A stretch of DNA of 63,542 nt, counting the filler, from an uncultured Methanosarcinales archaeon (GTDB lineage Archaea > Nanobdellota > Nanobdellia > Woesearchaeales > GW2011-AR9): assembly GCA_964434885.1 (NCBI GenBank). It is 3 parts of 3 records of this genome, joined end to end, with 100 filler letters (N's around TTAATTAATTAA, not from the genome) between each part and the next. Parts side by side here need not be neighbours in the genome. Positions count along the whole stretch, not along the records: positions 1 to 23,827 come from CAYSWQ010000009.1; positions 23,928 to 44,473 come from CAYSWQ010000011.1; 1 more part is not named here. One strand, 5' to 3'. The position numbers were made by a program, and so were the translations under genes. Below are positions 11,819 to 36,751 of this stretch, in pieces (position 1 is the stretch's first letter; each line of letters begins with the position of its first letter). The notes under the pieces were generated by a model that saw only the letters and a list, made by a program, of their open reading frames with translations, made no database searches and had not been told where the DNA came from.

Positions 11819-12469
11819 ATGAAACTAAAAAATCTAAACCTACCTGAATATTTCAAAGAATTCTATCAAAAATTCGAAAAACTAAACCCTATTCAAGAAA
11901 AAGCAATCAAAGCAGGTTTATTAGGAAAAAAATCACAACTCATTTGTGCACCAACTGCTTCTGGAAAAACATTAGTTGCAACGATGGCCATAGCCAATAC
12001 TTTAGACAAAGGTAAAGCAATTTATATTGTTCCATTAAAAGCATTAGCAAATGAAAAGCACAAAGAGTACCAAGAATTACTCAAAAACACTTCTTATCAA
12101 GCAATTATGAGTACTGGAGATATTGATTCTCCTTCTCCCCATTTATCAAAATATGATTTGCTTATTTTAACTTCAGAAAAATTTGATTCTCTAATCAGAC
12201 ATCGAGTTTCTTGGCTCAATGAAATTAAAACAGTAATTATCGACGAGATTCATCTTCTAAATGATCCAACAAGAGGGCCAACTTTGGAAATCATCATCAC
12301 TTTACTTAAATCCCTAATAAAACCTCAAATTATTGGATTATCTGCCACCATTGGAAACCCCAAAGAACTTGCCAACTGGCTAGAAGCTGAATTAGTCATT
12401 GACACTTGGAGACCAGTAGAACTAAAACAAGGTATTTATCATAATGAAGAAACAGAATTTTATGATTAA
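11819..12469 (+). CDS. hel308: Hel308/Ski2-like helicase, N-terminal RecA1 half only (split gene)
   Basis: Q motif LNPIQ, APTASGKT, VPLKALANEK, TSEKFDSL.R, IIDEIH, GLSATIGN, WRPVEL, then stop. Confidence 0.88.
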   Translation: MKLKNLNLPEYFKEFYQKFEKLNPIQEKAIKAGLLGKKSQLICAPTASGKTLVATMAIANTLDKGKAIYIVPLKALANEKHKEYQELLKNTSYQAIMSTGDIDSPSPHLSKYDLLILTSEKFDSLIRHRVSWLNEIKTVIIDEIHLLNDPTRGPTLEIIITLLKSLIKPQIIGLSATIGNPKELANWLEAELVIDTWRPVELKQGIYHNEETEFYD

Positions 12470-12822
12470 ATTTCAGTCTGTTTTAATCTTTCATATACTT
12501 CAACAGGAAATGTCTGTTCTCCAGGAAATTTTGGAAAATTTTCATAACTTCTGTGAACTTCAAATGTCCAATGTTCTACTCCAAAAAATTGCATCCACAC
12601 ACCACCAGGATTAAGATCAAATTTAACCCTTTTTAATCTGTATAATGATCCTTGACGATTGCAATCTAATTCCAATGTTAATGATTTGTGTTTTTCGGGA
12701 CCAACAAACATGCAACCTGCTTCTACTGCATAAACTAGATTTATGCTTCCTTCTATTGGTTTAATAATGGCATCAGAATTTGCCAAATACCTCATTAAAT
12801 CACATATTGAAGTTTCTGGCAT
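12466..12822 (-). CDS. Hypothetical protein
   Basis: 118 aa ORF with TATA-like element upstream. Confidence 0.6.
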   Translation of the reverse strand: MPETSICDLMRYLANSDAIIKPIEGSINLVYAVEAGCMFVGPEKHKSLTLELDCNRQGSLYRLKRVKFDLNPGGVWMQFFGVEHWTFEVHRSYENFPKFPGEQTFPVEVYERLKQTEI

Positions 12823-12878
12823 GTGTTAAATTCAGTTAAAACATATTTAAATATTTATATCTTTTAAAATATAATAAA

Positions 12879-14078
12879 TCACATTAATAATCCAACAACC
12901 TTCTCAAAATTATCATTACTCTGATCTTTCTTATACTCTTTCAACAACTCAATCATCTCTTCTTTATCCACTAATTTATTCCTTATTAAAAATTCTCCAA
13001 ACTGAGTAACATTATGTGGTTTTTTACTTTGATAACATCTTTCAAAATCAATCTGTACTGGTCCATCTTTACCAACAATAATATGTTTAAACGGACGATG
13101 CATTTCTTCTTTATTAATTTCTAATTTATCCATCTGATAACATTGCTTCAAAACATTAACAACTACTTCATTAACTTTCTTGCCTTTTAAAACAAAATTA
13201 AGAATATCTTCACCTTCAATAAATTCTTCAATCAAAAAATCTTTTCCATAAAAATACAACTTTGGTCCAATATCATATTTATTCAAAACCCGAAGATATT
13301 GTACTTCATTCTTAATCCTCTCTACTGCCTTACTTTTCTTCCGAGTTACCTTAATTGCTACTTTCACAGGTTTTGGCTTAGCAAAATGACTTTTTACCAA
13401 AGTAGATATATCAAACTTACCTGTAAAAACATCTCCTCTTTTACCATGTGTAAAATACTTAATTTCATAAACGTTCTTCTTCTCCAAATCCCGCAAAACT
13501 TTTGATTTAACAACTTCATAAACAAACAACTCTTCAAAAAAAGGTAAATTGATCTTTTCCAATTGTTTATATTCAAATAAGTTCTGTTCAATAATTTCTT
13601 CAACTTTCTCTTTTTTAGTTAACGAAGAAAACAACAACAATATTTTCCCTTCAGCCAACAAATGATTAGTAACTTCATTAAAAAATCTTTCAATTAACTC
13701 CCACCCTTTCTTTCCCCCATATAATGCAGGATCTTCAATTAATTCTCCAGCCACTTTATCTTGAGGCAAATAAGGTGGATTAAAAACAATAGTACTAAAT
13801 TTTCCTTCCACTTGAGAAAAAAGATCACTTTTCTTAACTTTAAGTTTCTTATTATTTAATTTTTCTAATTTCTTAACTTCTTTCTTCAATTCTTTGACTG
13901 CAACAGAATTAATATCGACAGCCAAAACGTCTCTCACTTCAATTTTTTTTACTGCTTCTAAAGCCAAAATTCCAGAACCAGTACCCATATCCAAAACCCT
14001 ACCTACTGCTAACTTCTTAACATATTTTTGCAGTAATTTGGAATCTTCTCGCGGTTCATAAATTTCCATAAAACCCAT
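12879..14078 (-). CDS. HemK2/PrmC-like methyltransferase fused to RIO/Bud32-like kinase domain
   Basis: IYEPREDS, LDMGTGSG, FNPPYLP; then GKRGDVF, VAIK, NE..YL, GPKLY, EEFIEG, IDFER. Confidence 0.85.
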   Translation of the reverse strand: MGFMEIYEPREDSKLLQKYVKKLAVGRVLDMGTGSGILALEAVKKIEVRDVLAVDINSVAVKELKKEVKKLEKLNNKKLKVKKSDLFSQVEGKFSTIVFNPPYLPQDKVAGELIEDPALYGGKKGWELIERFFNEVTNHLLAEGKILLLFSSLTKKEKVEEIIEQNLFEYKQLEKINLPFFEELFVYEVVKSKVLRDLEKKNVYEIKYFTHGKRGDVFTGKFDISTLVKSHFAKPKPVKVAIKVTRKKSKAVERIKNEVQYLRVLNKYDIGPKLYFYGKDFLIEEFIEGEDILNFVLKGKKVNEVVVNVLKQCYQMDKLEINKEEMHRPFKHIIVGKDGPVQIDFERCYQSKKPHNVTQFGEFLIRNKLVDKEEMIELLKEYKKDQSNDNFEKVVGLLM

Positions 14079-14154
14079 AAAACAAAATATTTATATAAAA
14101 CTTTTTAAATCAAAAGCAAATCATAGTTTAAATGGGTAGTCCCATTAATCTAAT

Positions 14155-14230
14155 GGGCCTGTGGTCTAGTGGCTATGACAGTGCCCTTACAAGGCATTGA
14201 TCCCCGGTTCGAGTCCGGGCAGGCCCACCA
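14155..14230 (+). tRNA. tRNA-Val(TAC), CCA encoded, no intron
   Basis: GGGCCTG/CAGGCCC-ACCA, anticodon arm GTGCC-CTTACAA-GGCAT, TTCGAGT T-loop. Confidence 0.95.
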
Positions 14231-14301
14231 TTTTTTCTTACTTTGTTATTTTTCCAATTGTTGACGAGAGAGGGTCACGAACAAAGCGTAAGCGAAGTGA
14301 C

Positions 14302-14337
14302 TTGATCCGGTTCAAGTCCGGGCAGGCCCACCATTTT
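14302..14337 (+). repeat. Duplicated 3' end of tRNA-Val(TAC) (att-like scar)
   Basis: ttgatcc--ggttcaagtccgggcaggcccaccatttt versus tRNA ttgatccccggttcgagtccgggcaggcccaccatttt. Confidence 0.85.
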
Positions 14338-15187
14338 ACATAAAAACAGTTGTTTCCAAATCCATTAATCTATCGACAAAGCCCCCTCTATAAGACTCAA
14401 ATCTCTGATCAAATTCACTTCTTAAATTATCTCTATTCTCCTGACTAGCTAAATAATTACCCACAACTCCTCCACCAACAAATCCTAAGTAAAAACCAAT
14501 TGCTCCAATAAGATAATTGCATACTTCCATTTCTTCGGGGAAAAATTGGGCACCTAAAAAATATCCTCCTATTCCCAAAACTGTTCCCCCAATTGTTCGA
14601 CCCCAAGTACGATTTCCAGACTCATTATCTTTAAACTGTTCAAACAAATTCATTTCAGAATTAACTTCATGATAAGCTTCTAAATTTCTTAACACAGACA
14701 TAGATTTATCAATTATTTCTTTATAAATTTCAAGTTCTACCTCTGGCCGAAAACCCAATCTTGATAAAATTGTATTTTTATAAGCATTCTGACAAATTAC
14801 TATTGATTTCAAAAAAGAATCATCCCAATTTTCTCCTAACTTAGGTACTGCTAAATCAACAAAAGATTGATAATCATAACATGGGCTTTCCATTCCTTTA
14901 ATTTTACTAATCAAATTACCTGTAAACGAACGTCGGTCTCTATCCCATTCTTCACCATCGTAAGTATAAGTGTCTTCCTCACTTTCTTTTATTTTCCACA
15001 AAACTGGCAAATAACCAATAGTTAAAGTACAAATATCATCAATTACATCCTCATAAAACTGCTCAGCTATTCTTTTTTTAGCAAACTCGGTTTTCCACCT
15101 AGGAATTCTTATTTTTTTACGCTATCCAAGTTCACTCTGTAATTCTAATACTGCTTCATCTAAAGTCATATCTTCTCTACAAACCAT
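14336..15187 (-). pseudogene. Membrane-anchored hypothetical protein with in-frame TAG at codon 22
   Basis: ATG 15187 is in frame with the 14336..15010 ORF; the only interruption is TAG at 15122-15124. Confidence 0.6.
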
Positions 15188-15276
15188 TTATTTTAAAAAA
15201 CTTTCTAAAATAACTATTTAATAGTAATTAAAAACAAAACCAAAACCTTAAAAACCATAACATTTTCTCTCTATTA

Positions 15277-16026
15277 ATGCAAGAACAAATCTTTGATTTA
15301 ATTGTAGAAAAAGACGATGTTACTTGGAAAACAATTCTTTATGATTTAGTAAAAACTGAACAGATGAATCCTTGGGATGTAGATTTAAGAATTCTAACCA
15401 AAAAATACGTTACTACAATTAAAAAAATGAAAGAAACTGACTTGAAAGTTTCTGGAAAAGTCCTTCTTGCTGCAGCTATTATGCTTAAAATGAAGTCACA
15501 TAAACTTCTTCACGAAGATATCGAAGAATTAGATCGTTTAATTGCTTCAACCGAAGAACACGAAGAAGATGAATTTTTCTCAGAATTCACTGAAGATTTA
15601 TTTGAAAAAAATCAAAAAGATTTGGAAAAGAAATATCAATTACTTCCTCGACAACCACAACCAAGATCGAGAAAGGTTTCTATCTATGATTTAGTTGATG
15701 CTCTACAAAAAGCCATGGAAACTAAAAAAAGAAAATTAGCTAAAATAAAACCACAAAAATTTGTCATCCCTAAAAAAACATTTGATATTGTCGAAACCAT
15801 TAGAGATGTTTATGCCAGAATTAGACATGGTTTTCAATCTGATCAAAGCAAAAAAATGACTTTTACTCAATTATTACCAAAAGGAGCTCAGAAAAGAGAT
15901 AAAGTACATACATTTATTCCTTTACTTCATCTAGAAAATCAAAAAAGAATTGAAACCAAACAACCAAAACACTTTGGTGATATTTTCATAAAACTTAATA
16001 AGAAAAAGAATGGTCATGTTAGATGA
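15277..16026 (+). CDS. scpA: Segregation/condensation protein A (kleisin)
   Basis: LYDLV...MNPWDVDL, SGKVLLAAAIMLKMKS, RKVS..DLVDAL, FIPLLHL...Q..HFGDI. Confidence 0.9.
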   Translation: MQEQIFDLIVEKDDVTWKTILYDLVKTEQMNPWDVDLRILTKKYVTTIKKMKETDLKVSGKVLLAAAIMLKMKSHKLLHEDIEELDRLIASTEEHEEDEFFSEFTEDLFEKNQKDLEKKYQLLPRQPQPRSRKVSIYDLVDALQKAMETKKRKLAKIKPQKFVIPKKTFDIVETIRDVYARIRHGFQSDQSKKMTFTQLLPKGAQKRDKVHTFIPLLHLENQKRIETKQPKHFGDIFIKLNKKKNGHVR

Positions 16027-16787
16027 TGGAAAAAATATTCTTTGTTGATCAACACAATAATAAATTATGTGGAGTTCTTTCCAATCCCTCACAAGACCTT
16101 GACAAACCAATAATTATCCTATGTCATGGATTTAGTTCTAGCAAAGACAGTTCCACCTATGTTAGATTACAAGAAGAACTCAACCAAAAAAACATCTCCA
16201 CTTTCAGATTTGATTTTTTTGGTCATGGAGAAAGTGCTGGTGATTTTGCCGAACTTACTATCAGTAAAGCAGTAAATAACCTTTTAGGGGCCATAAAATT
16301 TCTAAAAGAAAAAAATTATTCAAAAATTGGATTAATCAGTTCTAGTTTTGGAGGAATGGTTAGTCTTGTTACTGCCACTCAAACTCAAGACCTCTTTGTC
16401 CTAGGTCTGAAATGTCCAGTCTCAGATTATCTTGGCAAATTGATTGCTCAACACACCAAAAATAAAATCAAAGAGTGGGAAGAAAAAGGATTCCTTTTTT
16501 ATCACAATAAAAAATTAGGTAAATTAAAACTGAATTATTCCTTCTTCGAAGATTCTAAAAATTATGATAATTATTATGAACAATACAAAAATATTACCAT
16601 CCCTACTTTAATTGTTCATGGAGACAAAGATGTTACAGTCCCAATTGAACAAAGCCATAAAGCAAAAGAAGCCATTCTTAATTGTGAATTGGAAGTGATT
16701 CCGGGAGCAGACCATTATTTTAGAGAAAAAGACTATTTTGAAAGAGTAATTAATCACTTAACAGAATTTATAATAAAAAATATTTAA
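16023..16787 (+). CDS. Alpha/beta hydrolase
   Basis: LCHGF, FDFFGHGES, SSFGG nucleophile elbow, VHGDKD, GADH. Confidence 0.9.
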   Translation: MMEKIFFVDQHNNKLCGVLSNPSQDLDKPIIILCHGFSSSKDSSTYVRLQEELNQKNISTFRFDFFGHGESAGDFAELTISKAVNNLLGAIKFLKEKNYSKIGLISSSFGGMVSLVTATQTQDLFVLGLKCPVSDYLGKLIAQHTKNKIKEWEEKGFLFYHNKKLGKLKLNYSFFEDSKNYDNYYEQYKNITIPTLIVHGDKDVTVPIEQSHKAKEAILNCELEVIPGADHYFREKDYFERVINHLTEFIIKNI

Positions 16788-16792
16788 AAAAA

Positions 16793-17173
16793 TTATTCAA
16801 TTAATTCTTCTTTAGCTCTATGAATCTGAGCAAAATAAGGAACAGCTACAATATAGTCTTCTCCAAAACCAGCAATATCTCCTTCGATAGCATCGCAAGT
16901 TTTTCTTAACTTATTAATAGCTCTTTTTAACTCAATTAAATCTTTATCTTTTAAAGGTTTAATATTAATCAAAGCAATAGTAGCTCCTTCTCTTAAACAA
17001 TCTAAAATTCCTTTGATGTCTTCAAATTCTTCCATCACATAAGGGCGGACAATAATTCTAGATTTCTCTTCTTTGCCATGATCTAACTCAACATATTCCT
17101 CAAATGGTTCTTCTACAACCTCTTCTTTAGGCTGACTTAGTTTGTCTTTTAATTGTAAAAAAAAGTCTTTCAT
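16793..17173 (-). CDS. sepF: Cell division protein SepF
   Basis: ILDCLREG.TIALINIKPL...ELKRAINKL...EGDIAG archaeal SepF pattern. Confidence 0.85.
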   Translation of the reverse strand: MKDFFLQLKDKLSQPKEEVVEEPFEEYVELDHGKEEKSRIIVRPYVMEEFEDIKGILDCLREGATIALINIKPLKDKDLIELKRAINKLRKTCDAIEGDIAGFGEDYIVAVPYFAQIHRAKEELIE

Positions 17174-17252
17174 TTTGATTAAACCTCACTCTTCTTGTTT
17201 TTGTTTTTAGGAGAGAATACTTATATATAAATGTTTTTATAGTGTAGTATCA

Positions 17253-18668
17253 CTAACTCTGACCACTAATTTTGAAAACATTGGAATAAGCTGTTTTTCT
17301 CTTTCCTTTTTTACCAAAAAGTACTTTCGCCCTCGGTAGTTTAAGTGTTCCCAAGATCTTAAGTTTTGATTTTATTTGATAACTTATCAAACGATCTTCA
17401 TGTCCGTCTATCTCTGCTAGTTTCCACTTCACTAAGGTTCCTTTTTTAGTATGTTTGATTTCATGAGGTTTCAATGTTCCTAAATCTAAACTTTTCTCAA
17501 TATCTGCAATTCCTGGAACTAAATCTACTACCTCAATGTTTTTCAATGTTTTTTTAGTTACGTTTTTTAATTGTAAAGTAATTTTTAAATCTGATAATGT
17601 TGAATCTTTTTTAACTGTAGTTGATGTTTTAGATAATGTTACTGGTGATTTTGTGTATAAGTAAACAAAGAATAATAACAATAAAACCATTATTCCATAA
17701 AATGGAAATCGGTAATTATGGATATAAGTTAAAGTGACTGTCTCATTTGGACTTAATGTAACTTTCCACATCAAATTCTTTTGACCATTTTTGAATGCCA
17801 ATTTTGCTTGTGATTTAGTAAAAACATTCTTCCAGAAAGAAATTGGTACTAATACTTCCTGCGTATTTTTAACATTACCTGTGTTCCTAACTAAAAGTTT
17901 CTTAGTAGTTTTCAAAAAACTATCTGTTGTTGTTGTCTTAGTTGAAAACTTTGGTGTTAATGACACAATTTCAATCTCTTCAGATAAAACCTTAACTATT
18001 TCTTTATTTCTTTCAAAAGTAAAAAACAAGAAATGTTTTCCTGGCTTTTGCATCGAATTTGGAGAAACAGTAAATTCAACAGTTTTAGTTCCTAATGGTT
18101 CTAAACCAATAGTTGTCTGCTTATTAAATTCTTTCATATCACTCTGTAATCTAATATTCATCTTAGAAATATTCAAAGGGTTCTTATTTTCCAAAGACAA
18201 TTTAATAGTTTGTGTTTTCTGAGGATCTACTTTCTTAACCATATCTAAACTAACTTTAATAGAAGGTAAGTAATCTAATGGTTTATCTGGATCAATATAA
18301 ACAACCAATGTTTTAACATGTTTTTCTCCCAAGTCTGTTTCAATATTCATTCCTAATTTATATATTCCAGGGTTGAATTTTTCTGTCGGACTAGCTTTAA
18401 TAATTGTTTGCTTCTTTTGATTTGGCTGAATCTCCATAATTTTATCTTTCAATGGAGAAGGTTCAATATCCCATCCTTGTACAAATGAAAACAAAGAATA
18501 TCTTTGTGTCTTATCTTCATTATTAGAAATTGTTACTTTAAATGAAGCTGTTTCAGAAACTATAATAGAATTTTTAATCGGCTCAATTTTAATTTCAGAT
18601 TTAGCTCCAAAAGCAAAAGCTGATAAAAGAACCATTACAAATACCACAGATAATATTCTCCACCTCAT
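17253..18668 (-). CDS. Exported Ig-like/CARDB-type protein with a TM segment and further beta-rich domain
   Basis: Signal peptide, beta-rich repeats (VRNTGNV, LKNIEVVDLVP), one TM at about residue 325. Confidence 0.7.
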   Translation of the reverse strand: MRWRILSVVFVMVLLSAFAFGAKSEIKIEPIKNSIIVSETASFKVTISNNEDKTQRYSLFSFVQGWDIEPSPLKDKIMEIQPNQKKQTIIKASPTEKFNPGIYKLGMNIETDLGEKHVKTLVVYIDPDKPLDYLPSIKVSLDMVKKVDPQKTQTIKLSLENKNPLNISKMNIRLQSDMKEFNKQTTIGLEPLGTKTVEFTVSPNSMQKPGKHFLFFTFERNKEIVKVLSEEIEIVSLTPKFSTKTTTTDSFLKTTKKLLVRNTGNVKNTQEVLVPISFWKNVFTKSQAKLAFKNGQKNLMWKVTLSPNETVTLTYIHNYRFPFYGIMVLLLLFFVYLYTKSPVTLSKTSTTVKKDSTLSDLKITLQLKNVTKKTLKNIEVVDLVPGIADIEKSLDLGTLKPHEIKHTKKGTLVKWKLAEIDGHEDRLISYQIKSKLKILGTLKLPRAKVLFGKKGKRKTAYSNVFKISGQS

Positions 18669-18770
18669 TTTATAACTAGAATAAAAATAAACTAATATTT
18701 AAACTCTTCGTTTTTAAATCTTAGAATACCTAACGCCAACATATATAAACACCAAAACTTTCCTTCTCAC

Positions 18771-19709: not shown

Positions 19710-19712
19710 AAA

Positions 19713-20540: not shown

Positions 20541-20748
20541 TCTTGAATCTTCAACGAAAAGCAAGTTAATAAAGATTATTGTAATACACTAGTTAATTTT
20601 CATAATCTTTATAAACAAATCACCATAAAAAGTAATGAAAAAAGAGCTAGTTTTAAGATATAGTGTAGGACGCAAAAAATTAAAGATTTTTTGTGGACAA
20701 ACTACATTAGAAAGATAAACAATATGTTTAGTCTTTCTTTATGGATTT

Positions 20749-22398: not shown

Positions 22399-22421
22399 TT
22401 AGTTTACCCAAATAAATAAGA

Positions 22422-23827: not shown

Positions 23828-23927
23828 NNNNNNNNNNNNNNNNNNNNNNNNNNNNNNNNNNNNNNNNNNNNTTAATTAATTAANNNNNNNNNNNNNNNNN
23901 NNNNNNNNNNNNNNNNNNNNNNNNNNN
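23828..23927. other. Artificial contig linker
   Basis: N-run, TTAATTAATTAA (stops in all frames), N-run. Confidence 0.95.
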
Positions 23928-26962: not shown

Positions 26963-26994
26963 CCATATTAATATCTTTAATATTAATAATATGG
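26963..26994. promoter_or_regulatory. Operator candidate upstream of the Ubl operon
   Basis: CCATATTA...TAATATGG inverted repeat; core TAATATTAATAATAT also occurs at 26668-26682 upstream of the divergent regulator. Confidence 0.5.
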
Positions 26995-27061
26995 AAAAAA
27001 TATTAAAAAACCATAAGTCTCACCAAGAAGTAGTAAACAAAAAAATGGAAGGTAAACTAAA

Positions 27062-28534: not shown

Positions 28535-28947
28535 AACAAGATATGAAAGACAAACAAACTGAACAAAAACCCTACCAAACTGATAGTCCAGCTCTAGAAC
28601 AGCAATTACCAATTGTAATTTCCGCTCGTACTGGATTAGCCAGTCAAGACGATGCCATTATGCGAAGAATTCCCACCGAATACGGTGGAAAATCTGTCCG
28701 TGAAGCCTTAGAATATGTTACTGGTGGAGCTGCTACTGATGAAGAACTTCCTTTTGTAGATAGTATCAAAAGAGAATTATCTGCTCGCGGTAGCGTAGTT
28801 GTCGCTAATGGAAAAACTTCTGATCTTACTGATCGAGTTGAGAAGTACCTAGTCGAAAAATCCCATGAACTACCAAACGGAGAAGTTTCCAAATATCATG
28901 CTTTGGAAATCGAAGTCTCTGCTGTTCAACAAGGAGGATATTTTTGA
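28531..28947 (+). CDS. Putative ubiquitin-like (beta-grasp) protein with C-terminal GG-YF
   Basis: SVREALEYV helix, VVVANGK (MoaD/SAMP-like VxVNG), terminal strand LEIEVSAVQQGG plus YF; operon context. Confidence 0.7.
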   Translation: MKQDMKDKQTEQKPYQTDSPALEQQLPIVISARTGLASQDDAIMRRIPTEYGGKSVREALEYVTGGAATDEELPFVDSIKRELSARGSVVVANGKTSDLTDRVEKYLVEKSHELPNGEVSKYHALEIEVSAVQQGGYF

Positions 28948-28962
28948 TTTTTTTTTCTTAAA

Positions 28963-30813
28963 ATGGAAATCAAACGCGGTTTAGAATTAATCTTGGAAAA
29001 GAACCTCGGCTTAGAACATGGTCGAGGTAGAGATGAATTCTATTATGAAGGGGAATTAGATCATTATAAATTAGGTCAACGCGTGGAAGTTATTGAACAA
29101 GTAGCTGAAGATAAATTGGTTGTCCGCGCCGAAAAAAATTGTGGCAGTTGTACTTGTCACAAAGCAATCGCCGTCCATCCCGAAGAAGTTGGTTTAGGAC
29201 AACCTAAAAAAATTGCTCTCCAACAAATGCCTGGTTTAGCTGAAGTTGATCAACACCCTTTGTTTGAATTTGCGGAAAGCAACCCCCTCTTCATTGTTGG
29301 TGGTGAAGTATATACTCCTACCAAAGGCAAAGCTACTGGATCTTTTTATCGCCCCAACCAATGGAGACAACCTTTAGTAGTCTTAGGTACTCTCACCTCT
29401 CTAGATGAATTAGCTAGTCACCGTCAGCATTTCCAAATTCAAGAAGTACAAACCGCTTATGCTTTAGAACAAATTAAAAAAATTACTAACTCTGATGCTC
29501 ATGGAGGTAATTTAGATTTACCGCAACGAATCTACAAATTAGTTTTCCCCCATTTACGTTCAGAAAATTACGAGAACAAATTGGCCTTACTAATTCATGG
29601 CAAAGCCCCATCACCTCAAAAAGCCAAGGGTGAAGTCAAAAGCAATGGTGAAGTGCAGAGAATTGCCCAAACATTGTACAACCAAGTACAAGAAATGATT
29701 ACCCAGATTGAGCAAGAAGGTAATGTTCCTAAACAAGAACGGACTAAAATAAAATCAAAATTAGATGGATTACTAGATTACCAAGAACCTGAAATTGTAG
29801 CTGATTCTCCCTTGACCAGAGCTCTTAAGGGAACTTCTGTTGCTTTAATTAGAGGAGAGATTTATGATCTCCACCCTACCGACGAAACCACTCAATTACA
29901 AATCAACAATCAAAATTACAAATTAGTTCTTCGTAAAACCGAACCAAAACAAAAAGCAGAATTTGAAGTCGGCGATCAAATCGTAATGAATAAACGAGCT
30001 ACTAAAAAATACAGATATACTCATGAAGGTAGCAGAGGGAAGATTATTGCAGAAACGGGAAATGGAAAATACCGGGTTAGATTCACCCTACAAACAGGGG
30101 ATCCACAAGGTGGAACTACTACTTGGAAAGTCCATGAAGATTACATGACCAACGTTACTCCAAATGAACCATTCATTGAAACTATTGAAACTCTTGAAAA
30201 CCAAGTCTTATTAGAACAAAGCAGAGACTTAAGAATCAGCGCTCTCCGAGAACACATCACTCCTCAAGATATTGCTTCTCTAATCAAAGATGAACACACT
30301 GCTTTGTTAACATTAAAAGACAAAAAAGAATACGCTGAAGATAACTTTGGTTTCCTCACTCGTAGTAGAGATACTTATGTCTATTTAGAAGTTCCTGCTT
30401 TCGCGATTAAAAGTCAATTTGATGGTAATTATTATCTCTTTGACAAAGCTAGAATTGGCTTCCAAGTTTATTCTGATGGTTCCAGTATCAACTATTCTGA
30501 GAGACTAGTAATGATTGACAACAACAATCATCCTTTTAATCATAATGAACGTGGAAGTTGGGTAAAAATATGTATAGGTAGACAAAGTTTTCCCACTTCC
30601 GGCAAAGATCGAGGGGAAGTAATTGCCAAAAGATTACGTCGGGGACAAGAAATGCTGATGTATGGTTATACCAGCCGAGATTATCAGCGTTGTTACGAGT
30701 TAAGAAAAGAATGTTATAGTTGCGGAAGAAATCATTTCTCCCAAAACCTAACCACAGAAGCCAAAGTAAAGAGCCTAGGTGTACCAATAATCAATGGAGG
30801 ACCCAGACGATGA
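28963..30813 (+). CDS. Large protein with SH3-like insert and C-terminal putative E2 (UBC-like) domain
   Basis: HPF(N)...ICIG motif (His523, Cys537) after a beta-meander; FEVGDQIV...GKI...YRVRF SH3-like segment; context between Ubl and JAB. Confidence 0.6.
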   Translation: MEIKRGLELILEKNLGLEHGRGRDEFYYEGELDHYKLGQRVEVIEQVAEDKLVVRAEKNCGSCTCHKAIAVHPEEVGLGQPKKIALQQMPGLAEVDQHPLFEFAESNPLFIVGGEVYTPTKGKATGSFYRPNQWRQPLVVLGTLTSLDELASHRQHFQIQEVQTAYALEQIKKITNSDAHGGNLDLPQRIYKLVFPHLRSENYENKLALLIHGKAPSPQKAKGEVKSNGEVQRIAQTLYNQVQEMITQIEQEGNVPKQERTKIKSKLDGLLDYQEPEIVADSPLTRALKGTSVALIRGEIYDLHPTDETTQLQINNQNYKLVLRKTEPKQKAEFEVGDQIVMNKRATKKYRYTHEGSRGKIIAETGNGKYRVRFTLQTGDPQGGTTTWKVHEDYMTNVTPNEPFIETIETLENQVLLEQSRDLRISALREHITPQDIASLIKDEHTALLTLKDKKEYAEDNFGFLTRSRDTYVYLEVPAFAIKSQFDGNYYLFDKARIGFQVYSDGSSINYSERLVMIDNNNHPFNHNERGSWVKICIGRQSFPTSGKDRGEVIAKRLRRGQEMLMYGYTSRDYQRCYELRKECYSCGRNHFSQNLTTEAKVKSLGVPIINGGPRR

Positions 30814-31856
30814 AAAATTTAAATGATTTATTAGGACAAACTGAACCAGAAGTAAAACCAACTGAAGAACCTACAATATTAAACACTATTCATGTTACTA
30901 GACACGCCTATCAAAAAGCTTATGCCTACGCCCACTTAGCTTGTAAAATTGCTAGAAGAAGTATTGAATGTGGAGGGTATCTAATTGCTCCTAAAGACTC
31001 TGGTGATCGTATCGCCACAGATGCCTACCTAGCCAGAGATCAAAAAGTAGCTGCCGGTCTTTTCACTGTTGAAGCGGAAGATGTTATCAAAGCCGGTAGA
31101 GAAGTTGATCAACTCGGTTACCGAGTTCTAGGTTGGTGGCATAGTCATGGAAAACTAAACACTTTCTTTTCCCAACTAGATGACCGGGGCCAGATGACTG
31201 TGCTTAATGAAATCTGTGCCTTCAATTATATCACTAAACCCTCTACCAAACCAGTCCACAATTTAGAAACCGAAATAGAGGATGGCAAAATTATCCTGTT
31301 CGATAAACAAAACCCCAATACTCGGTACGAGATAACTGGTACTGGCAACATTGACATTGCTAGTTTACAAATTACTGAAGAAAAGAAAATTGGCTTTGCT
31401 TATGGCTTAGTTGTTAATGCTGGACTTGATAAAACCCCTTATGCCGAAATGGCTACCCGAGAGTATTGTTACTCATGCCGTGATTCTGTCAGTCAAAGTG
31501 ATCCCTGCAATATTAGTGTTTTTGGTCCACCAACCGAAAAAATGGACTTAAAACAACTCCGTAAAGATATTCGTGAAAGAGTCAAATGGCAGAAGAAATT
31601 TTTGAGTTATTTCAAGAAAAAAACAAGGATTGGAACCCAACCCTATGTTCCTGGTTCTTTTCCTGAAGATCCTGTAGCTACTTTTCCATCCAACCCTTAT
31701 GTCCCTCCTGCCAGACCCACGAAACCAGTTACACCTACACCTCTAGTCCCGGCACCTCGACCCCCACAACAAACAGACATGGTGTTTCCAACGATGCCAA
31801 AACCCGAAAACAAAAAGCCAAAAAGAACCAGAACTAAAAAGAAACCAAAAAAATGA
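30810..31856 (+). CDS. JAB/MPN+ (JAMM) metalloprotease with Pro/Lys-rich tail
   Basis: ECGGYL and WWHSHG...FFSQLD JAMM motif; ATG 30810 overlaps upstream TGA, GGAGG RBS. Confidence 0.88.
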   Translation: MKNLNDLLGQTEPEVKPTEEPTILNTIHVTRHAYQKAYAYAHLACKIARRSIECGGYLIAPKDSGDRIATDAYLARDQKVAAGLFTVEAEDVIKAGREVDQLGYRVLGWWHSHGKLNTFFSQLDDRGQMTVLNEICAFNYITKPSTKPVHNLETEIEDGKIILFDKQNPNTRYEITGTGNIDIASLQITEEKKIGFAYGLVVNAGLDKTPYAEMATREYCYSCRDSVSQSDPCNISVFGPPTEKMDLKQLRKDIRERVKWQKKFLSYFKKKTRIGTQPYVPGSFPEDPVATFPSNPYVPPARPTKPVTPTPLVPAPRPPQQTDMVFPTMPKPENKKPKRTRTKKKPKK

Positions 31857-33238
31857 TTGACCGATACAACAGACAAGAACTAATTGAAAACTGGGACCAA
31901 ACTCAACTAGAGCAAACTAGAATTGCCTTGATTGGTTCTGGCCCTTTAGCTAATTTCACTGCTGTCTGTTTAACTGCATTAGGAATAGGAAATTTAGAAA
32001 TCTACTCTCCCGATAAAGTTAATCAACCAAATTCAGCAGAATTTTTGCAATCTGGTGAACCTGGACAGCCTAAAGTCCAAGGCTTAGAAACCCTTCTTAG
32101 AAAAATCAACACCTCTTCCCGAATCAAAGGTCTAGCAATTCCTTTAGACCAAAACCTAGTTCAATTATTAAGTCAACCAGATTTAATTATTGACACCACT
32201 AATTCACCTGATTCCAAAAAAACAATCCTTAAATATGGCAATGTCGAAGAAATCCCTGTTATCTCCGCCGTAGCTAATTCAACCACTGCCGAAATGCGGT
32301 TAGGTGGTAAAGAATCTTTGTTTAAAGATTATCAAAACCAACCACAAGGGGCCGTACCTAGTGGTATTCTCGGTGGAATCATTACCGAAGAAGTTAGAAA
32401 AATAGTCATGCCCTTAGATGATTACGATCGCCCTTTAACCCACTTAACTTACTCTTTAGCCGCAGATAATCGTTTTTCTCCCAACCAAGACACAGAACTA
32501 GGAGAATTTAATCTCGAAAACAAAAAAGTCTTAATGGTTGGTGCTGGAGCTTTAGGTAATTTCGCAGGTCTTGGTTTGGCTTTACAAGGCCTTGGCCGTC
32601 TCGACATCATGGACTTTGATGAAGTTGATTCTACTAACTTAAATCGACAAGTTCTCTTCTACGGTGCCGTTGGTGAACTAAAAGCCCCTGCCTTAGCCGA
32701 AAGACTAACTGAAATAGTACCCACTCTAAAAGCTCGTGCTTTAGTAGAGAAATTAGACACTGATTCCAAATACTTCTGGCACAATAAACCAGATTTAATT
32801 GTTGATTGTGTTGATAGTTTTGCCGTCCGCGCCATCATTAATTATTATGCTGTTCGTTACCAAATTCCTTTAGTTAGTGGTGGTACTAATCCAAAATCTG
32901 GACAGATTGTTGCCTATCAACCAGGAAAAAGTTCTTGTTTAGATTGTCAATTACATGTTGAAAAGGCACTAGCCGAACAAAGACAAGCAGCCAGTTGTAA
33001 ATACACACCAGATCCTAGTGTTATTATGACTAATCAAATCTTAGGTAATATGTTAGTTGGAGAAGCTACAAAAGTATTAGACTCACATTATGGAGAAGCT
33101 GTAACTAAAATCCTAAAATATGATTCTAACCATCCGAGAAGAGGAGGACTAGTTCATCTTGGGGATCCTTGTGATTGCACTAAACCGAAAGATGTTAACA
33201 CTTGGTTACAACAAGTAGACAAATTATTAGAAAAATAA
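31853..33238 (+). CDS. E1-like enzyme with two tandem ThiF/MoeB adenylation domains
   Basis: Domain 1: RYNRQ, IGSGPLA (degenerate). Domain 2: VGAGALG, DFDEVDSTNLNRQVLF, DCVD, CLDC, ASC, CDC. Confidence 0.9.
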   Translation: MIDRYNRQELIENWDQTQLEQTRIALIGSGPLANFTAVCLTALGIGNLEIYSPDKVNQPNSAEFLQSGEPGQPKVQGLETLLRKINTSSRIKGLAIPLDQNLVQLLSQPDLIIDTTNSPDSKKTILKYGNVEEIPVISAVANSTTAEMRLGGKESLFKDYQNQPQGAVPSGILGGIITEEVRKIVMPLDDYDRPLTHLTYSLAADNRFSPNQDTELGEFNLENKKVLMVGAGALGNFAGLGLALQGLGRLDIMDFDEVDSTNLNRQVLFYGAVGELKAPALAERLTEIVPTLKARALVEKLDTDSKYFWHNKPDLIVDCVDSFAVRAIINYYAVRYQIPLVSGGTNPKSGQIVAYQPGKSSCLDCQLHVEKALAEQRQAASCKYTPDPSVIMTNQILGNMLVGEATKVLDSHYGEAVTKILKYDSNHPRRGGLVHLGDPCDCTKPKDVNTWLQQVDKLLEK

Positions 33239-35068
33239 TTATTTTTTAGCTACTGCTGACCGAGTAGCTCTGTACAATCCATTAATTAATTCTTTATGCA
33301 CTTTCCCTTCATTATCTGTGATATAATAATAAGCTAAAGCACGATCTACTAAGTTCCTTCTAGTATGACTCATAAATTCTCGGTATCCTTTATACATTGT
33401 GCCTCTCTCAGATATCCTTGGGAAATAATTTGGATTTTTGGATCTCACTCTTGCCGAAAATATTTCTTCCATAGAATCGGAAAAATAAAGTGCGTAAACA
33501 TCACTTAAATTTTTATGATTTCCAATACATCTTTTTAGATATTGTAATCCTGAGGAAATATCTTGTCCTGTCCCCATTAAATGTACAGGGGTTCTTAACC
33601 CTGCTGCCTGTGATATTCTATGGGCAAACATTTTTGGTGCAGCTAAAATATCTAATCTATTTTCAGCAAATTTTTTATAACCACTAGAATCTTCTTCTTT
33701 AGTCATTTCAATACTTCTAAGCAAAGAATACATCATTCTCTTGCTCATTCGATGATATTCAGCTATTTGTCCAATTTTATGATTAAGCACAGGATCTAGC
33801 TCTTTATCATGGTTTTTAATTTCTCGAAAAACAGGTCTCAATTGCTCCAAAGTTTTTCTATTAGCATGTTTAATCAGTACATCAATACTGGAATCTTCAA
33901 ATAATGGATTGGCACTCAATGTTTGAAAAATACTGGGTTCTGCTTTTCTTGCTTTCGCTTCTTCTAACCGAGCCAACTTTCCTCCCCAGATTGCCCCAGT
34001 TAAAATTCCTGTAGTTACTGCAAATATACCCATATATTTTACAGCTTGTTTCCAATAAGTAAATCTTCTTGGTTCAGTTGCAGCCAATAAATCCTGCCTA
34101 AATGAATCATGAACAACCCACCCACTATTTCCAGAATATTTTCTCTCATACGAAGACAAACAATTACTAATTAATCTCCTATACTGTCTAGGAACCTTCT
34201 TCAATTTTCGCTTTAACAATCGCTCTTGTTTATCTGATTCTATTCGAGTAATTGGTTTTCCTTCTTGTGTTAATATCATTCCTAAATCTCTTCCTGCAAC
34301 CTGGATCTTTTTATCTGAATCCCCTACACTCAATTTTATTTCAGATAAAGGTTCTCCGGTTAATACATAATATAAAGTCATTCCTAAAGCATAAAATTCA
34401 CTTCCAATTGTGGCATTAGTTTCCTTCCCTTTCATCAAAGCATTCAATATATAAGGGTCAGTATAATTTGTTCCTCCACGAGTTGGCAACAAAGAACAAT
34501 CTATTTCTTCCATTTCTCCTACATTTTGCAAATCAGTAATCTTAACATGGTTATTTTTCTTTCCAATTAATATATTAGAAGGTTTAATATCTCGATGCAA
34601 TAATTTCTCATCCAAATGCAAATGTTTTAAACCTGAAGCTATTTGTAAAAACATTTCCCTAATTTTTTCAGGATCAGTTATTGGTCCACTTAATTCAACT
34701 AATTCTTCCAAAGAAACTGCATCATAATGTTCTTCTACACTAAGTGTTTTTCCTTCTTTTTGAAAAGCATCATGGAATTCTATAATATTGGGATGGGAAA
34801 TACTATTCAAAGCCATTACTTCTCTTTCATTCATATCTCCTTTTGATAAATTAATAATTGTAGTTAAAGAATTCGAATCAATTTCATTCTTAGGAACCTT
34901 AGCAACTCTTCTTTTTTCCAAGCACCCATTTGAATACTGTACTTCATATACCTTACTAGTACATCCTTCCCCAATCTGCCTAATTAAAGTATATCCTTTT
35001 TGTTTTAGAAAACACTCTGCTCTTTGTTCCCAATCTACTTCCTTCTCAGCTTCAATATCTTCACTCAT
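33239..35068 (-). CDS. Hanks-type Ser/Thr protein kinase with TM helix and C-terminal domain
   Basis: IGEGCTSKVY, VAK, HPNII, LHRDIKPSNIL, DLQ at the DFG position, GTNYTDP; TM YMGIFAVTTGILTGAIWG. Confidence 0.88.
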   Translation of the reverse strand: MSEDIEAEKEVDWEQRAECFLKQKGYTLIRQIGEGCTSKVYEVQYSNGCLEKRRVAKVPKNEIDSNSLTTIINLSKGDMNEREVMALNSISHPNIIEFHDAFQKEGKTLSVEEHYDAVSLEELVELSGPITDPEKIREMFLQIASGLKHLHLDEKLLHRDIKPSNILIGKKNNHVKITDLQNVGEMEEIDCSLLPTRGGTNYTDPYILNALMKGKETNATIGSEFYALGMTLYYVLTGEPLSEIKLSVGDSDKKIQVAGRDLGMILTQEGKPITRIESDKQERLLKRKLKKVPRQYRRLISNCLSSYERKYSGNSGWVVHDSFRQDLLAATEPRRFTYWKQAVKYMGIFAVTTGILTGAIWGGKLARLEEAKARKAEPSIFQTLSANPLFEDSSIDVLIKHANRKTLEQLRPVFREIKNHDKELDPVLNHKIGQIAEYHRMSKRMMYSLLRSIEMTKEEDSSGYKKFAENRLDILAAPKMFAHRISQAAGLRTPVHLMGTGQDISSGLQYLKRCIGNHKNLSDVYALYFSDSMEEIFSARVRSKNPNYFPRISERGTMYKGYREFMSHTRRNLVDRALAYYYITDNEGKVHKELINGLYRATRSAVAKK

Positions 35069-35155
35069 TTTAATATAAAATTGCCGAATTCATTTATAAA
35101 TCTTTCGGTTATTTATTACTTATTAATAGTAACATAAATAAAGAATTTAACTTAC

Positions 35156-36751
35156 TCAAAACTTCTCCAAACTCATTTGTCCTTTCCTTCGACCCCTAGG
35201 AATTTCTTTAACTTCCACACCTAATTGCTTCTTAACATCAACTGCAACTCGTTGACCCAATAACTTAACCAAATCACTCAGTTCTGCTTTCTTCAAATCT
35301 CCCAAATCCACCAAACCATTCTTATACAACTTCCGAGCCCGTTTCCGACCAATCCCTTTCAATTTCAATAAAGGTAACAATTCCTCCTTAACTCCTTTCT
35401 TAACCCTAATTCTTAACTTAGTTATCTCTTTCAAAAGTGGTTGAAACTGCAACAATCGAGCTAACTCAGAACTTGCATATAACAACCAATCTCCAATCGC
35501 TAGTTTAACAAATATTTCTCCCGGTCGAATTCCATATTTCTCCATCAAATAATCTTCTCCCATTTCTTCAATCCAATCAGAAAAAAACAATGCGGTCTTA
35601 ATCGAATTAATAAAATCTTCATAATTAGGATCATATAATGTTGGTTCCGCTTGTAACAATTGATCATACTTCTCAACCAATTTTTCCTGCACCCAATCTT
35701 GCTCCCTCATCTTCACCCTTAATGGGGGAACCATCTCTAAAGTATTAGAAAACATCTGCAAAAAAGAAAACGAAGTAACTTCTACTTTCCCACTAGTACA
35801 ATTCCTCAAACACTGAATCAAATAATTAGCTGTAAAAGGGTCCAAATATAATTCAGAAACTCTTTTTCCAATCAAAGTTGGTCTTAAAAAAACATTTTCT
35901 TCACTTTTAACTTTATCACCACCAACCAAATTACTAGCCGTGACAAAACCCAACATTCCTTTCTTTTTCTCGCCACTATTCAAACCAATATTTCCAATAT
36001 CTTGAATCTTAATAAATTCATACTCTTCCAATAATCCCAACATATCATCAATTATTTGTCTAATCTTATTCATATCTTTAAATTGATAAGCCCAAAAAGT
36101 TTTCGAAAAAAAATCAATCAACTTTTTCTTAGTTGGAGTTATTCCAGAAGCAATCAAAGATAATAAATATGTTCTAAACACTGGTTCTACTGCTAATTTA
36201 GAATAAATTTCTTCTGGACTACCACGAACATACTTTTCATAAATTTCATCCCTTTCTCCATCACTCTTAGCAATACAAATTGCTTCACCAAATTTCTCAT
36301 ACTCTGGACGACCAGCCCTACCTGCCATCTGCTGGTATTCCAATACTGGAATCCAATTCATTCCCCATCTTCCAGAATATCTTTTCAATGATTTAATAAT
36401 AACTCGAAAAGCAGGAAGCGACATTCCGGCAGCAAGTGTTGGTGTACAACAAACAATTTTAATATTCCCTGCCCTAAATTCATCTTCAATTAAAGTCTTC
36501 TGGGTAGTCGTTAAACCAGCGTGATGAAAAGCAACACCTTTCTTCACACACTTAGCCAAACGATGACATTGTTTAGTTGGCGCCGAAACCCCTTTAAAAA
36601 CACTCTCACTTTGCTCCAATAAAATTATTTTAGTTTGCTTAGAAATATCTTCTGCTGTCTTCTCCGCCGAAGCTCGACTCGGAACAAAAACTAATGCTTG
36701 TTTCTTACACATTATCGTTTCCAAAGCCAAACTCAGAGTTTCATCTAACAT
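35156..36751 (-). CDS. hel308: Hel308/Ski2-like helicase, C-terminal half (RecA2, WH, ratchet, HhH)
   Basis: QALVFVPSR, GVAFHHAGL, TPTLAAG.SLPA, QMAGRAGRP, SELYLDP, RVKKGVKEELLPL..LKGIGRKRARKLY; no Walker A/B. Confidence 0.88.
   Translation of the reverse strand: MLDETLSLALETIMCKKQALVFVPSRASAEKTAEDISKQTKIILLEQSESVFKGVSAPTKQCHRLAKCVKKGVAFHHAGLTTTQKTLIEDEFRAGNIKIVCCTPTLAAGMSLPAFRVIIKSLKRYSGRWGMNWIPVLEYQQMAGRAGRPEYEKFGEAICIAKSDGERDEIYEKYVRGSPEEIYSKLAVEPVFRTYLLSLIASGITPTKKKLIDFFSKTFWAYQFKDMNKIRQIIDDMLGLLEEYEFIKIQDIGNIGLNSGEKKKGMLGFVTASNLVGGDKVKSEENVFLRPTLIGKRVSELYLDPFTANYLIQCLRNCTSGKVEVTSFSFLQMFSNTLEMVPPLRVKMREQDWVQEKLVEKYDQLLQAEPTLYDPNYEDFINSIKTALFFSDWIEEMGEDYLMEKYGIRPGEIFVKLAIGDWLLYASSELARLLQFQPLLKEITKLRIRVKKGVKEELLPLLKLKGIGRKRARKLYKNGLVDLGDLKKAELSDLVKLLGQRVAVDVKKQLGVEVKEIPRGRRKGQMSLEKF

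What the first reader, a model, noticed from the sequence alone, without database searches (positions are those of the whole stretch)
11819..36751. Hel308 helicase split into two independent genes at the RecA1/RecA2 linker
Seen: 11819-12469(+) holds motifs Q, I, Ia, II and III and stops just after WRPVEL. 36751-35156(-) starts right before QALVF..SR and holds motifs IV-VI plus all C-terminal domains. The halves are complementary with no overlap, each is internal to its contig, and each has its own TATA-like element about 25 nt upstream. Established: split informational genes are known in Nanoarchaeum equitans. Inference: a functional two-subunit Hel308. A contig linker lies between them, so distance and orientation are not meaningful.
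Basis: partly seen in the sequence, partly recalled or inferred. Interest (0 to 1): 0.7.

Follow-up and report, generated by a model that had tools for sequence, protein, structure and literature searches.

The report
Hel308 helicase encoded as two genes
This small marine DPANN archaeon, like every sampled member of its order, encodes the DNA-repair helicase Hel308 as two separate, unlinked genes that most likely come together as one working two-chain enzyme.

Summary
Window 11819-12469(+) encodes 216 aa matching positions 1-218 of a 739-position Hel308 profile. Window 35156-36751(-) encodes 531 aa matching positions 230-710. Each gene lies inside its own contig.

The split is old and not an artefact. 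In 58 genomes from 31 families of the same order, none has a one-piece Hel308 and 49 have both pieces. In single-contig genomes the pieces lie 37 to 333 kb apart. In other orders of the class, 56 of 65 genomes with a hit have a one-piece gene.

Both halves keep all their helicase motifs invariant. Non-synonymous change is far below saturated synonymous change. Each half has a positionally conserved TATA-like box.

The cut is not exactly at the RecA1/RecA2 linker. It lies about 20 residues inside RecA2, so the N chain carries RecA2's first strand. A complex model scores 0.81 against 0.01 for the best control, but this may reflect memory of solved one-chain structures.

I read it as a working two-subunit Hel308, a new variant of a known kind. 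I found no paper describing it. This scan noted the same split before in other genomes.

The parts
11819..12469 (+). hel308-N: 216-aa subunit holding RecA1 (motifs Q, I, Ia, Ib, II DEIH, III SAT), the WRPV linker and the first beta-strand of RecA2 (LKQGIY...EFYD)
   Evidence: ORF. Pfam DEAD and NF002654 positions 1-218 of 739. 60 invariant columns across 21 orthologues. Map to PfuHjm residues 20-210.
11790..11799 (+). TATA-like box (aatTTAAATA) 20-29 nt upstream of the N gene's ATG; implies its own promoter and a leaderless or near-leaderless mRNA
   Evidence: Sequence. A run of 7 or more A/T inside -36..-20 occurs in 18 of 21 orthologous upstream regions, against 5-8 of 21 in control windows.
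35156..36751 (-). hel308-C: 531-aa subunit holding the rest of RecA2 (motifs IV, IVa FHHAGL, V, VI QMAGRAGRP), a winged helix, the ratchet domain 4 and the HhH domain 5
   Evidence: ORF. Pfam Helicase_C, HTH_61, Helicase_dom4_arc and HHH_5, and NF002654 positions 230-710. 89 invariant columns across 21 orthologues. Map to PfuHjm residues 229-709.
36774..36785 (-). TATA-like box (aaaagTATTTAA) 23-34 nt upstream of the C gene's ATG
   Evidence: Sequence. A run of 7 or more A/T inside -36..-20 occurs in 18 of 21 orthologous upstream regions, against 4-7 of 21 in control windows.
23828..23927 (.). Artificial contig linker (two 44-N runs around TTAATTAATTAA) between contig C9 and contig C11. Distance and orientation of the two genes in the window carry no meaning.

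Best explanation
Hel308 (Hjm), the Ski2-like SF2 DNA helicase of archaeal replication-fork repair and recombination control, is encoded here by two unlinked genes. They arose from one gene fission at or before the root of this order. Sources name the closest homologues Woesearchaeota/Nanoarchaeota.

Each gene has its own TATA box, ATG and stop codon, and each is translated separately. The N chain supplies RecA1 (ATP binding, Walker A/B) plus the first strand of RecA2. The C chain supplies the rest of RecA2 (motif VI arginine finger, motifs IV-V), the winged helix, the ratchet and the HhH domain.

The two chains assemble non-covalently. In the model, the N tail strand LKQGIY (residues 202-207) adds in parallel to the C strand GEAICIA (residues 155-161), and RecA1 packs against RecA2 and the winged helix. 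This rebuilds the ATPase cleft and the ssDNA channel of a normal 3'-to-5' Hel308.

Shown: the gene anatomy, order-wide conservation, purifying selection and conserved promoter boxes. Inferred: assembly, ATPase and helicase activity, and the strand-addition clasp.
For: Anatomy: the profile ranges are complementary, 1-218 and 230-710 of 739. Aligned to 13 one-piece relatives, only a variable loop of roughly 10-15 residues is missing. All 21 of 21 N proteins end within a few residues of the conserved EF(Y), and all 21 of 21 C proteins begin in the same loop.

Distribution: among 58 genomes of the order (31 families), 0 have a one-piece gene, 49 have both halves, 5 have N only, 3 have C only and 1 has neither. 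On shared contigs the halves lie 37 kb (G040), 93 kb (G054), 333 kb (G093), 418 kb (G009) and 421 kb (G010) apart. None of 29 relatives' C loci (+/-1.5 kb) holds an N half, and none of 20 N loci (+/-3 kb) holds a C half. In other orders of the class, 56 of 65 genomes with a hit have one ORF covering the whole profile.

Single origin: on a tree of 21 concatenated split forms and 13 one-piece forms, the split forms are one side of a branch (SH-aLRT 87, one change).

Selection: Q26, PTASGKT, DEIH, SAT and WRPV are invariant in N. Q18, FHHAGL, TPTLAAG and QMAGRAGRP are invariant or nearly so in C. pN is 0.13-0.31 against pS 0.67-0.94 in both halves. Pairwise identities of N and C correlate with r = 0.81 over 210 pairs.

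Expression signals: AT fraction is 0.90-1.00 at columns -30..-24 upstream of both gene sets, and A/T runs are present in 18 of 21 regions for each.

Assembly: the complex model scores 0.81 (three runs, 0.80-0.82) against a best control of 0.01. That mark was reached by 116 of 157 solved complexes and 2 of 215 mismatched pairs. The runs agree in at least 91% of contacts and the partner's pLDDT is at least 86. Motifs I and II of N contact motifs V and VI of C.

Independent DNA: contigs from 4 runs of 2 studies bridge the N gene's start and stop with no joints.
Against: No experiment shows binding or activity. Because one-chain Hel308 structures are solved (2ZJ2, 2P6R, 2VA8, 9B15), the complex score may show likeness and not binding.

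In 8 of 58 genomes only one half was found, and in 1 neither. Two of these have 100% marker completeness: G017 (N only) and G109 (C only). Re-searching with the window's proteins did not find the missing halves. G146 was not re-searched. All of these are multi-contig drafts, and the number is about what 5-8% incompleteness predicts, but real loss of one half cannot be excluded.

No RNA data are available. Neither half, nor their summed score (about 698 bits), reaches the NCBIfam cut-off of 887 bits. The one-piece genes of sister orders (577-791 bits) do not reach it either. The window's own genome is 92% complete.
Confidence: 0.85

Rival explanations
1. Sub-functionalised halves. After the fission the two proteins act largely apart. 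For example, the C chain would act alone as an ATP-independent DNA-binding or annealing factor. The N chain would be a detachable or differently partnered ATPase module.
For: In 8 of 58 genomes only one half was found. The C chain keeps motif IVa, which a paper's abstract links to a strand-annealing function of Hel308 (PMC10484726, abstract seen in the listing). The halves are never adjacent and share no operon.
Against: Motif VI in C, and motifs Q, I and II in N, only make sense as one composite ATP site, and all are invariant. The identities of the two halves co-vary (r = 0.81). The one-half genomes are all drafts. The interface model is confident.
Confidence: 0.08
2. The halves are rejoined after transcription or translation, by a split intein as in N. 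equitans PolB or by RNA trans-splicing, giving a one-chain Hel308.
For: Split-intein PolB and trans-spliced tRNA halves exist in Nanoarchaeota (PMC3655853 Table 1; PMC3491384 abstract). Inteins do occur in Hel308 of this class, in single ORFs of 1233 and 1246 aa in G080 and G126.
Against: There is no room for intein halves. N ends, and C begins, in Hel308-homologous sequence with at most 12 extra residues, and Pfam finds no intein domain. Each half has its own conserved ATG, stop and TATA box. Rfam finds no RNA element at either border.
Confidence: 0.02
3. The halves are decaying fragments of a dead gene, and the function is carried by another helicase.
For: The genome has other SF2 helicases: an Mtr4-like 643-aa protein at 52061-53992 and a weaker helicase match in an 888-aa frame on contig C20.
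Against: Frames are intact and catalytic motifs invariant across 21 aligned genomes from 8 families. pN is far below pS. The split clade's branch lengths are no longer than those of one-piece forms.
Confidence: 0.02
4. An assembly or binning artefact: one gene broken by misassembly, or two contigs from different organisms.
For: The genome is a 66-contig draft, and some apparent splits elsewhere are such artefacts. The pieces in G047, G068 and G140 end at contig ends.
Against: Both genes are internal to their contigs and have their own stop or start. The same arrangement occurs in the single-contig genomes G040 and G093. Contigs from 4 runs of 2 studies bridge the N stop codon. The best holder may be the source sample, so this last point is only partly independent.
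Confidence: 0.01

Closest known systems
Archaeal Hel308/Hjm (P. furiosus Hjm 2ZJ2; A. fulgidus Hel308 2P6R; S. solfataricus 2VA8; 9B15)
   Same: It has the same five-domain Ski2-like architecture and the same motifs. N residues 18-209 align to Hjm 20-210 (E 8.6e-58). C residues 8-520 align to Hjm 229-709 (E 5.7e-87).
   Different: It is two polypeptides from unlinked genes, not one chain. The cut is about 20 residues into domain 2 (RecA2), and a short surface loop has been lost.
Split 'large helicase-related protein' (Lhr) of Nanoarchaeum equitans (NEQ003/NEQ409) and Nst1 (Nst172/239)
   Same: It is an SF2 DNA-repair helicase of a DPANN archaeon encoded as two unlinked genes without an intein (PMC3655853 Table 1, passage read).
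   Different: It belongs to a different helicase family (Lhr, not Hel308). The Lhr split sites differ between the two nanoarchaea, whereas the Hel308 cut is at one site across a whole order. I did not examine where Lhr is cut.
Other split informational genes of DPANN (reverse gyrase, AlaRS, RpoB, Dph1/2)
   Same: It is the same phenomenon: fission of conserved informational genes in reduced archaeal genomes. Dph1/2 is reported as split in Woesearchaeota (PMC6349945, passage read).
   Different: Hel308 is not on any list that I read.
Two-gene Hel308-type helicases of large phages, noted earlier in this scan (e1-5708567, e1-6032746, e1-5804166)
   Same: They are natural two-chain Hel308-like helicases kept under selection.
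   Different: By those notes the cut lies in or after motif V, the halves are neighbours with cargo genes between them, and the hosts are phages. I did not test these notes here.
Second Hel308 split found here in another order of the same class (G134, G163)
   Same: It is a clean fission of Hel308 inside RecA2 into two complete ORFs.
   Different: The cut is directly after motif VI (...GRAGRP* / M..YGEAI...), about 165 residues downstream of the window's site, and is therefore an independent event.

Membership tests
Hel308/Hjm (Ski2-like SF2 DNA helicase) | SF2 core motifs Q, I, Ia, Ib, II (DExH), III, IV, IVa (F/YHHAGL), V, VI. Motif names are recalled, except IVa, which comes from the PMC10484726 abstract. 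| tested here: met
   All are present, divided between the two chains, and invariant or nearly so in 21 orthologues.
Hel308/Hjm (Ski2-like SF2 DNA helicase) | Winged helix, ratchet domain 4 and C-terminal HhH domain 5 | tested here: met
   Pfam HTH_61 (155-248), Helicase_dom4_arc (329-453, E 7.5e-29) and HHH_5 (460-509) on the C chain.
Hel308/Hjm (Ski2-like SF2 DNA helicase) | Score above the curated NCBIfam equivalog cut-off (NF002654, 887 bits; NF040935, 1200 bits) | tested here: not met
   The scores are 251 and 447 bits. One-piece genes of sister orders score 577-791 bits and also miss the cut-off. The cut-off is therefore too strict for this class and does not discriminate here.
Hel308/Hjm (Ski2-like SF2 DNA helicase) | Single polypeptide carrying both RecA domains | tested here: not met
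   There are two genes on separate contigs, and 0 of 58 genomes of the order have a one-piece gene. This is the respect in which it is a variant.
Hel308/Hjm (Ski2-like SF2 DNA helicase) | DNA-dependent ATPase and 3'-to-5' DNA helicase activity | not testable with these tools
   This needs purified N+C complex.
Intein-less split protein genes of DPANN archaea | Two complete ORFs at unlinked loci that are complementary, non-overlapping and both conserved | tested here: met
Split-intein (protein trans-splicing) genes | Intein N- and C-fragments flanking the break | tested here: not met
   There is no extra sequence at the break and no intein or Hint Pfam hit.

The most novel reading that the evidence does not exclude
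The fission is not neutral but creates a switch. The C chain (DNA-binding ring with motif IVa) would act by itself as an ATP-independent DNA clamp or annealing factor. The separately expressed N chain would dock through its donated RecA2 strand to turn it into a translocating helicase. The cell could then set the balance between annealing and unwinding by the ratio of the two subunits. A second, independent cut next to the partner strand in another order would mean that this edge of RecA2 is a naturally permissive, and possibly regulatory, seam of Ski2-like helicases.
Probability: 0.1. Interest if true: 0.75.

Novelty: new variant of a known kind. Interest (0 to 1): 0.5.

Why it matters
Hel308/HELQ-type helicases are studied as single chains in which two RecA domains must communicate. 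Here a whole, widespread archaeal order has run for a long evolutionary time on a version cut inside RecA2. Among proteins of 118-378 aa, 3848 clusters match the N half at E <= 1e-30, though fragments of one-piece genes are included in that count. This gives a natural system for asking how the ATP site and the DNA channel are held together without a covalent link, and which seams of the fold tolerate cutting.

It also matters for annotation. The halves are labelled only 'DEAD/DEAH box helicase' or 'helicase' in public records. Surveys that require a full-length hit will therefore score these archaea as lacking Hel308. Finally, it adds a DNA-repair helicase to the list of informational genes split in DPANN, at order scale and not as a single-species oddity.

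Tried and rejected
(1) Expression: no RNA holder was listed among the public runs for window 11500-12900, so nothing can be said about expression.

(2) Small RNAs at the gene borders, as C/D-box sRNAs flank split genes in N. equitans (PMC3491384, passage): an Rfam gathering-threshold scan of the whole window found only a tRNA (14155-14227) and SRP RNA (58837-59107), and nothing at either border. C/D-box sRNAs are poorly covered by Rfam, so this is weak.

(3) A strict TATA match (at least 7 of 8 positions of TTTAWATA, a consensus recalled from memory) was too stringent. It gave 7 of 21 (N) and 5 of 21 (C) against 0-3 of 21 in controls. I replaced it with the A/T-run and per-column measure.

(4) dN/dS proper could not be computed for most pairs because synonymous sites are saturated (pS above 0.75 gives an infinite dS). 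I give pN and pS instead.

(5) Apparent splits near position 220 outside the order (G068, G140, G137), and at about 385 in G047, were rejected as contig-end artefacts. G068, G140 and G047 were checked against contig lengths. G137 was judged from its coordinates only.

(6) Conserved neighbours give no functional link. An S-layer-like protein (12 of 20 loci) and a methyltransferase/kinase-like fusion (12 of 20, one weak) flank N. An Ig/PKD-repeat protein (12 of 29 loci) lies upstream of C.

(7) Literature searches found no description of a split Hel308 in archaea: 'Hel308'+'split gene'+'DPANN', 'Hel308'+'Woesearchaeota' (0 papers), 'Woesearchaeota/split/helicase/RecA1', 'split helicase...' and 'Hel308'+'split into two'. 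I also searched passages of PMC10946056, PMC11237513, PMC6349945, PMC13623763, PMC8301817 and the 2026 Nanobdellota preprint. The one supplement of PMC10946056 held as text has no DPANN names. Supplements of the other papers were not seen, and subscription journals are not covered.
Full report
**1. What is in the window**

The window is three contigs of one draft genome (G000: 1.07 Mb, 66 contigs, 92% complete), glued together with N linkers. C9 is window 1-23827, C11 is 23928-44473 and C14 is 44574-63542.

The first gene, 11819-12469(+), encodes 216 aa. Pfam finds DEAD (E 1.2e-33). The NCBIfam Hel308-type equivalog NF002654 matches its positions 1-218 of 739 (E 1.9e-74).

The second gene, 35156-36751(-), encodes 531 aa. 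It carries Helicase_C, HTH_61 (winged helix), Helicase_dom4_arc (ratchet) and HHH_5, and matches positions 230-710 of the same profile (E 1.3e-133).

Both genes lie more than 7 kb from the ends of their contigs.

**2. Where exactly the cut lies**

I aligned the halves from 21 genomes with 13 one-piece relatives. All N proteins end within a few residues of a conserved ...WRPVxLxxGxxxxxxxEF(Y). All C proteins begin in the loop that follows, just before the helix and strand that carry motif IV (...LALETIxxxKQAxxF). Only a variable loop of about 10-15 residues has been lost.

Against P. furiosus Hjm, N residues 18-209 align to Hjm 20-210 and C residues 8-250 align to Hjm 229-472. Hjm domain 1 is residues 1-197 and domain 2 is 198-399 (PMC2636818, passage read). 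The cut therefore lies about 20 residues inside RecA2. The N chain carries RecA2's first strand.

**3. Not an artefact and not a remnant**

A six-frame profile search of G000 finds only the two halves, a 643-aa paralog and a weak match (70.5 bits) in an 888-aa frame.

I searched 41 genomes: G000, 24 of the same family and 16 from other families of the order. The class sample added 17 more genomes of the order. That gives 58 genomes in 31 families. The tally is:
- one-piece Hel308: 0
- both halves: 49
- N only: 5 (G003, G011, G017, G034, G146)
- C only: 3 (G019, G109, G185)
- neither: 1 (G030)

Re-searching seven of the eight one-half genomes, and G030, with the window's own proteins did not find the missing halves. 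G146 was not re-searched. All nine are multi-contig drafts. The number of misses (10 of 116 expected genes) is close to what their incompleteness predicts, but real loss cannot be excluded.

Where both halves share a contig they are far apart: 37 kb in the single-contig genome G040, 333 kb in the single-contig genome G093, 93 kb in G054, 418 kb in G009 and 421 kb in G010. No locus holds the two halves side by side.

Logan contigs from 4 public runs of 2 studies (marine or seawater metagenomes) run through the N gene's start and stop codons without joints. One of these runs may be the source sample.

**4. Phylogenetic extent**

In the other orders of the same class, 65 of 131 sampled genomes have a hit at E <= 1e-60. 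Of these:
- 54 have one match covering the whole profile.
- 2 (G080, G126) have one ORF of about 1240 aa with an insert that looks like an intein.
- 7 are cut by contig ends.
- 2 (G134, G163) have a different true split (see section 10).

On a maximum-likelihood tree (LG+G4, quick search), the 21 split forms (N and C concatenated) form one side of a branch. The SH-aLRT support is 87 and the tree needs one change. Their nearest neighbour is the one-piece G132, and the joint clade has support 99.

The simplest reading is one fission at or before the root of the order. Sources label the closest homologues 'Candidatus Woesearchaeota archaeon' or 'Nanoarchaeota archaeon'. That the order is GTDB's Woesearchaeales is my inference.

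**5. Selection**

Across 21 genomes from 8 families the N alignment has 70% mean column identity. Q26, P45-T51 (PTASGKT, with A47 nearly invariant), D142-E143-x-H145, S175-A176-T177 and W197-V200 are invariant.

The C alignment has 60% mean column identity. Q18, F22, F75-H76-H77-x-G79-L80, T103-P104-T105-L106, Q141-M142-x-G144-R145-A146-G147-R148-P149 and many ratchet and HhH positions are invariant.

Synonymous sites are saturated (pS 0.67-0.94), while pN is 0.13-0.31 in both halves. Where dS could be computed, the ratio is 0.08-0.24. Pairwise identities of the two halves co-vary, with r = 0.81 over 210 pairs. This is expected for co-inherited partners, although relatedness alone contributes to it.

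**6. Separate expression signals**

TTTAAATA lies at -27 to -20 of the N gene's ATG, and TATTTAA at -29 to -23 of the C gene's ATG.

In the 21 orthologous upstream regions of each gene, the A/T fraction is 0.90-1.00 at columns -30 to -24. A run of at least 7 A/T lies inside -36..-20 in 18 of 21 (N) and 18 of 21 (C). Control windows give 5-8 and 4-7 of 21.

This fits an archaeal TATA box with a leaderless or very short-leader mRNA for each half. The interpretation rests on general knowledge of archaeal promoters, and no transcript data exist.

**7. How it most likely works**

The N chain holds the nucleotide-binding half of the ATP site. The C chain holds motif VI and the entire DNA-handling ring. 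Neither can be a motor alone, which follows from established SF2 mechanism.

The complex model gives ipSAE 0.81 (three runs, 0.80-0.82) against a best control of 0.01. That mark was reached by 116 of 157 solved complexes and 2 of 215 mismatched pairs. The runs agree in at least 91% of contacts and the partner's pLDDT is at least 86.

The most confident contacts pair N residues 202-207 (LKQGIY) with C residues 155-161 (GEAICIA, the strand after motif VI). The register runs upward on both chains, which indicates parallel strand addition. N residues 157-161 and 187 contact the C winged helix at 214-222. N motifs I and II face C motifs V and VI.

Because one-chain Hel308 structures are solved, this pass shows that the pieces fit the known fold. 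It does not show that they bind.

**8. Rivals**

- A split intein or trans-splicing is excluded by the lack of any extra sequence at the break and by the conserved start and stop signals.
- Pseudogene decay is excluded by sections 3-5.
- Independent functions of the two chains cannot be excluded, and this carries the most novel reading.

**9. What is known**

Split protein genes are a recognised feature of DPANN archaea. For N. equitans and Nst1, Table 1 of PMC3655853 lists reverse gyrase, RpoB, AlaRS, PolB, topoisomerase I and a 'large helicase-related protein' (NEQ003/409), but not Hel308. PMC6349945 mentions split Dph1/2 in Woesearchaeota.

I found no paper describing a split Hel308. The searches and passages are listed under Tried and rejected.

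This scan has noted the same split twice before in other genomes. e1-982222 is the N subunit in DPANN. e1-1173016 is the C subunit with an intein in Woesearchaeota. My results agree with both.

**10. Verdict and things noticed in passing**

This is a real, ancient, order-wide two-gene Hel308. It is a new variant of a known kind, of moderate interest.

Three other things came up:
- A second, independent Hel308 fission directly after motif VI in G134 and G163.
- Inteins in some one-piece Hel308 genes of the class.
- The third helicase of the window (52061-53992) is a compact Mtr4/Ski2-type protein with a DSHCT domain. Its best solved relative is human MTR4 lacking the arch (6c90_A, E 1.5e-112). 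A survey of archaeal Ski2-like helicases found that group to be exclusively eukaryotic in its data set (PMC10946056, passage).

Noticed in passing
window 52061-53992 (-), contig C14: A 643-aa helicase with DEAD, Helicase_C and DSHCT domains. Its best solved relative is arch-less human MTR4 (6c90_A, E 1.5e-112, query 5-632 = chain 70-722), followed by yeast Mtr4, FRH and Ski2. Matches with the same profile range, in open frames of 634-671 aa, occur in 25 of the other 40 genomes. A 2024 survey found the Mtr4/Ski2 group exclusively eukaryotic in its data set (PMC10946056, passage). Its origin (archaeal, or transferred from bacteria with HelY-like proteins; that family name is recalled) deserves its own look.
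   Followed up: partly
L068 and L069 (G134, contig C4, 25 kb apart); L077 and L078 (G163): A second, independent clean fission of Hel308 in another order of the same class. The N piece ends exactly after motif VI (...GRAGRP*). The C piece starts M..(K)YGEAI..., which is the strand that partners the N tail in the window's complex model.
   Followed up: partly
G080:C3:14026-17652 (L076) and G126:C6:679-4314: One-piece Hel308 ORFs of 1233 and 1246 aa with an insert of about 500 aa between profile positions 340 and 342, presumably an intein. I did not check this with an intein profile.
   Followed up: no
window 12879-14078 (-): A 399-aa fusion of a small methyltransferase domain (MTS/PrmA-like, residues 13-114) with a C-terminal kinase-like region (weak Choline_kinase match, residues 228-325). 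It is a conserved neighbour of hel308-N in 12 of 20 relatives' loci.
   Followed up: no
window 8884-11445 (-) and 37142-39895 (-): An 853-aa S-layer-like protein (S_layer_C) lies divergent from hel308-N. A 917-aa surface protein with Ig, cadherin-like and PKD repeats lies upstream of hel308-C. Both are syntenic in 12 relatives' loci each.
   Followed up: no
window 12466-12822 (-): A 118-aa ORF antisense and immediately downstream of hel308-N, overlapping its stop by 4 nt. It has no Pfam hit and no homologue in 20 relatives' loci. It is probably spurious or lineage-specific, and it sits in a 410-nt convergent intergenic region.
   Followed up: partly
G008 contigs C86 and C87: Two N-half copies occur in one 77%-complete, 150-contig genome. 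This may be strain mixture or duplication.
   Followed up: no
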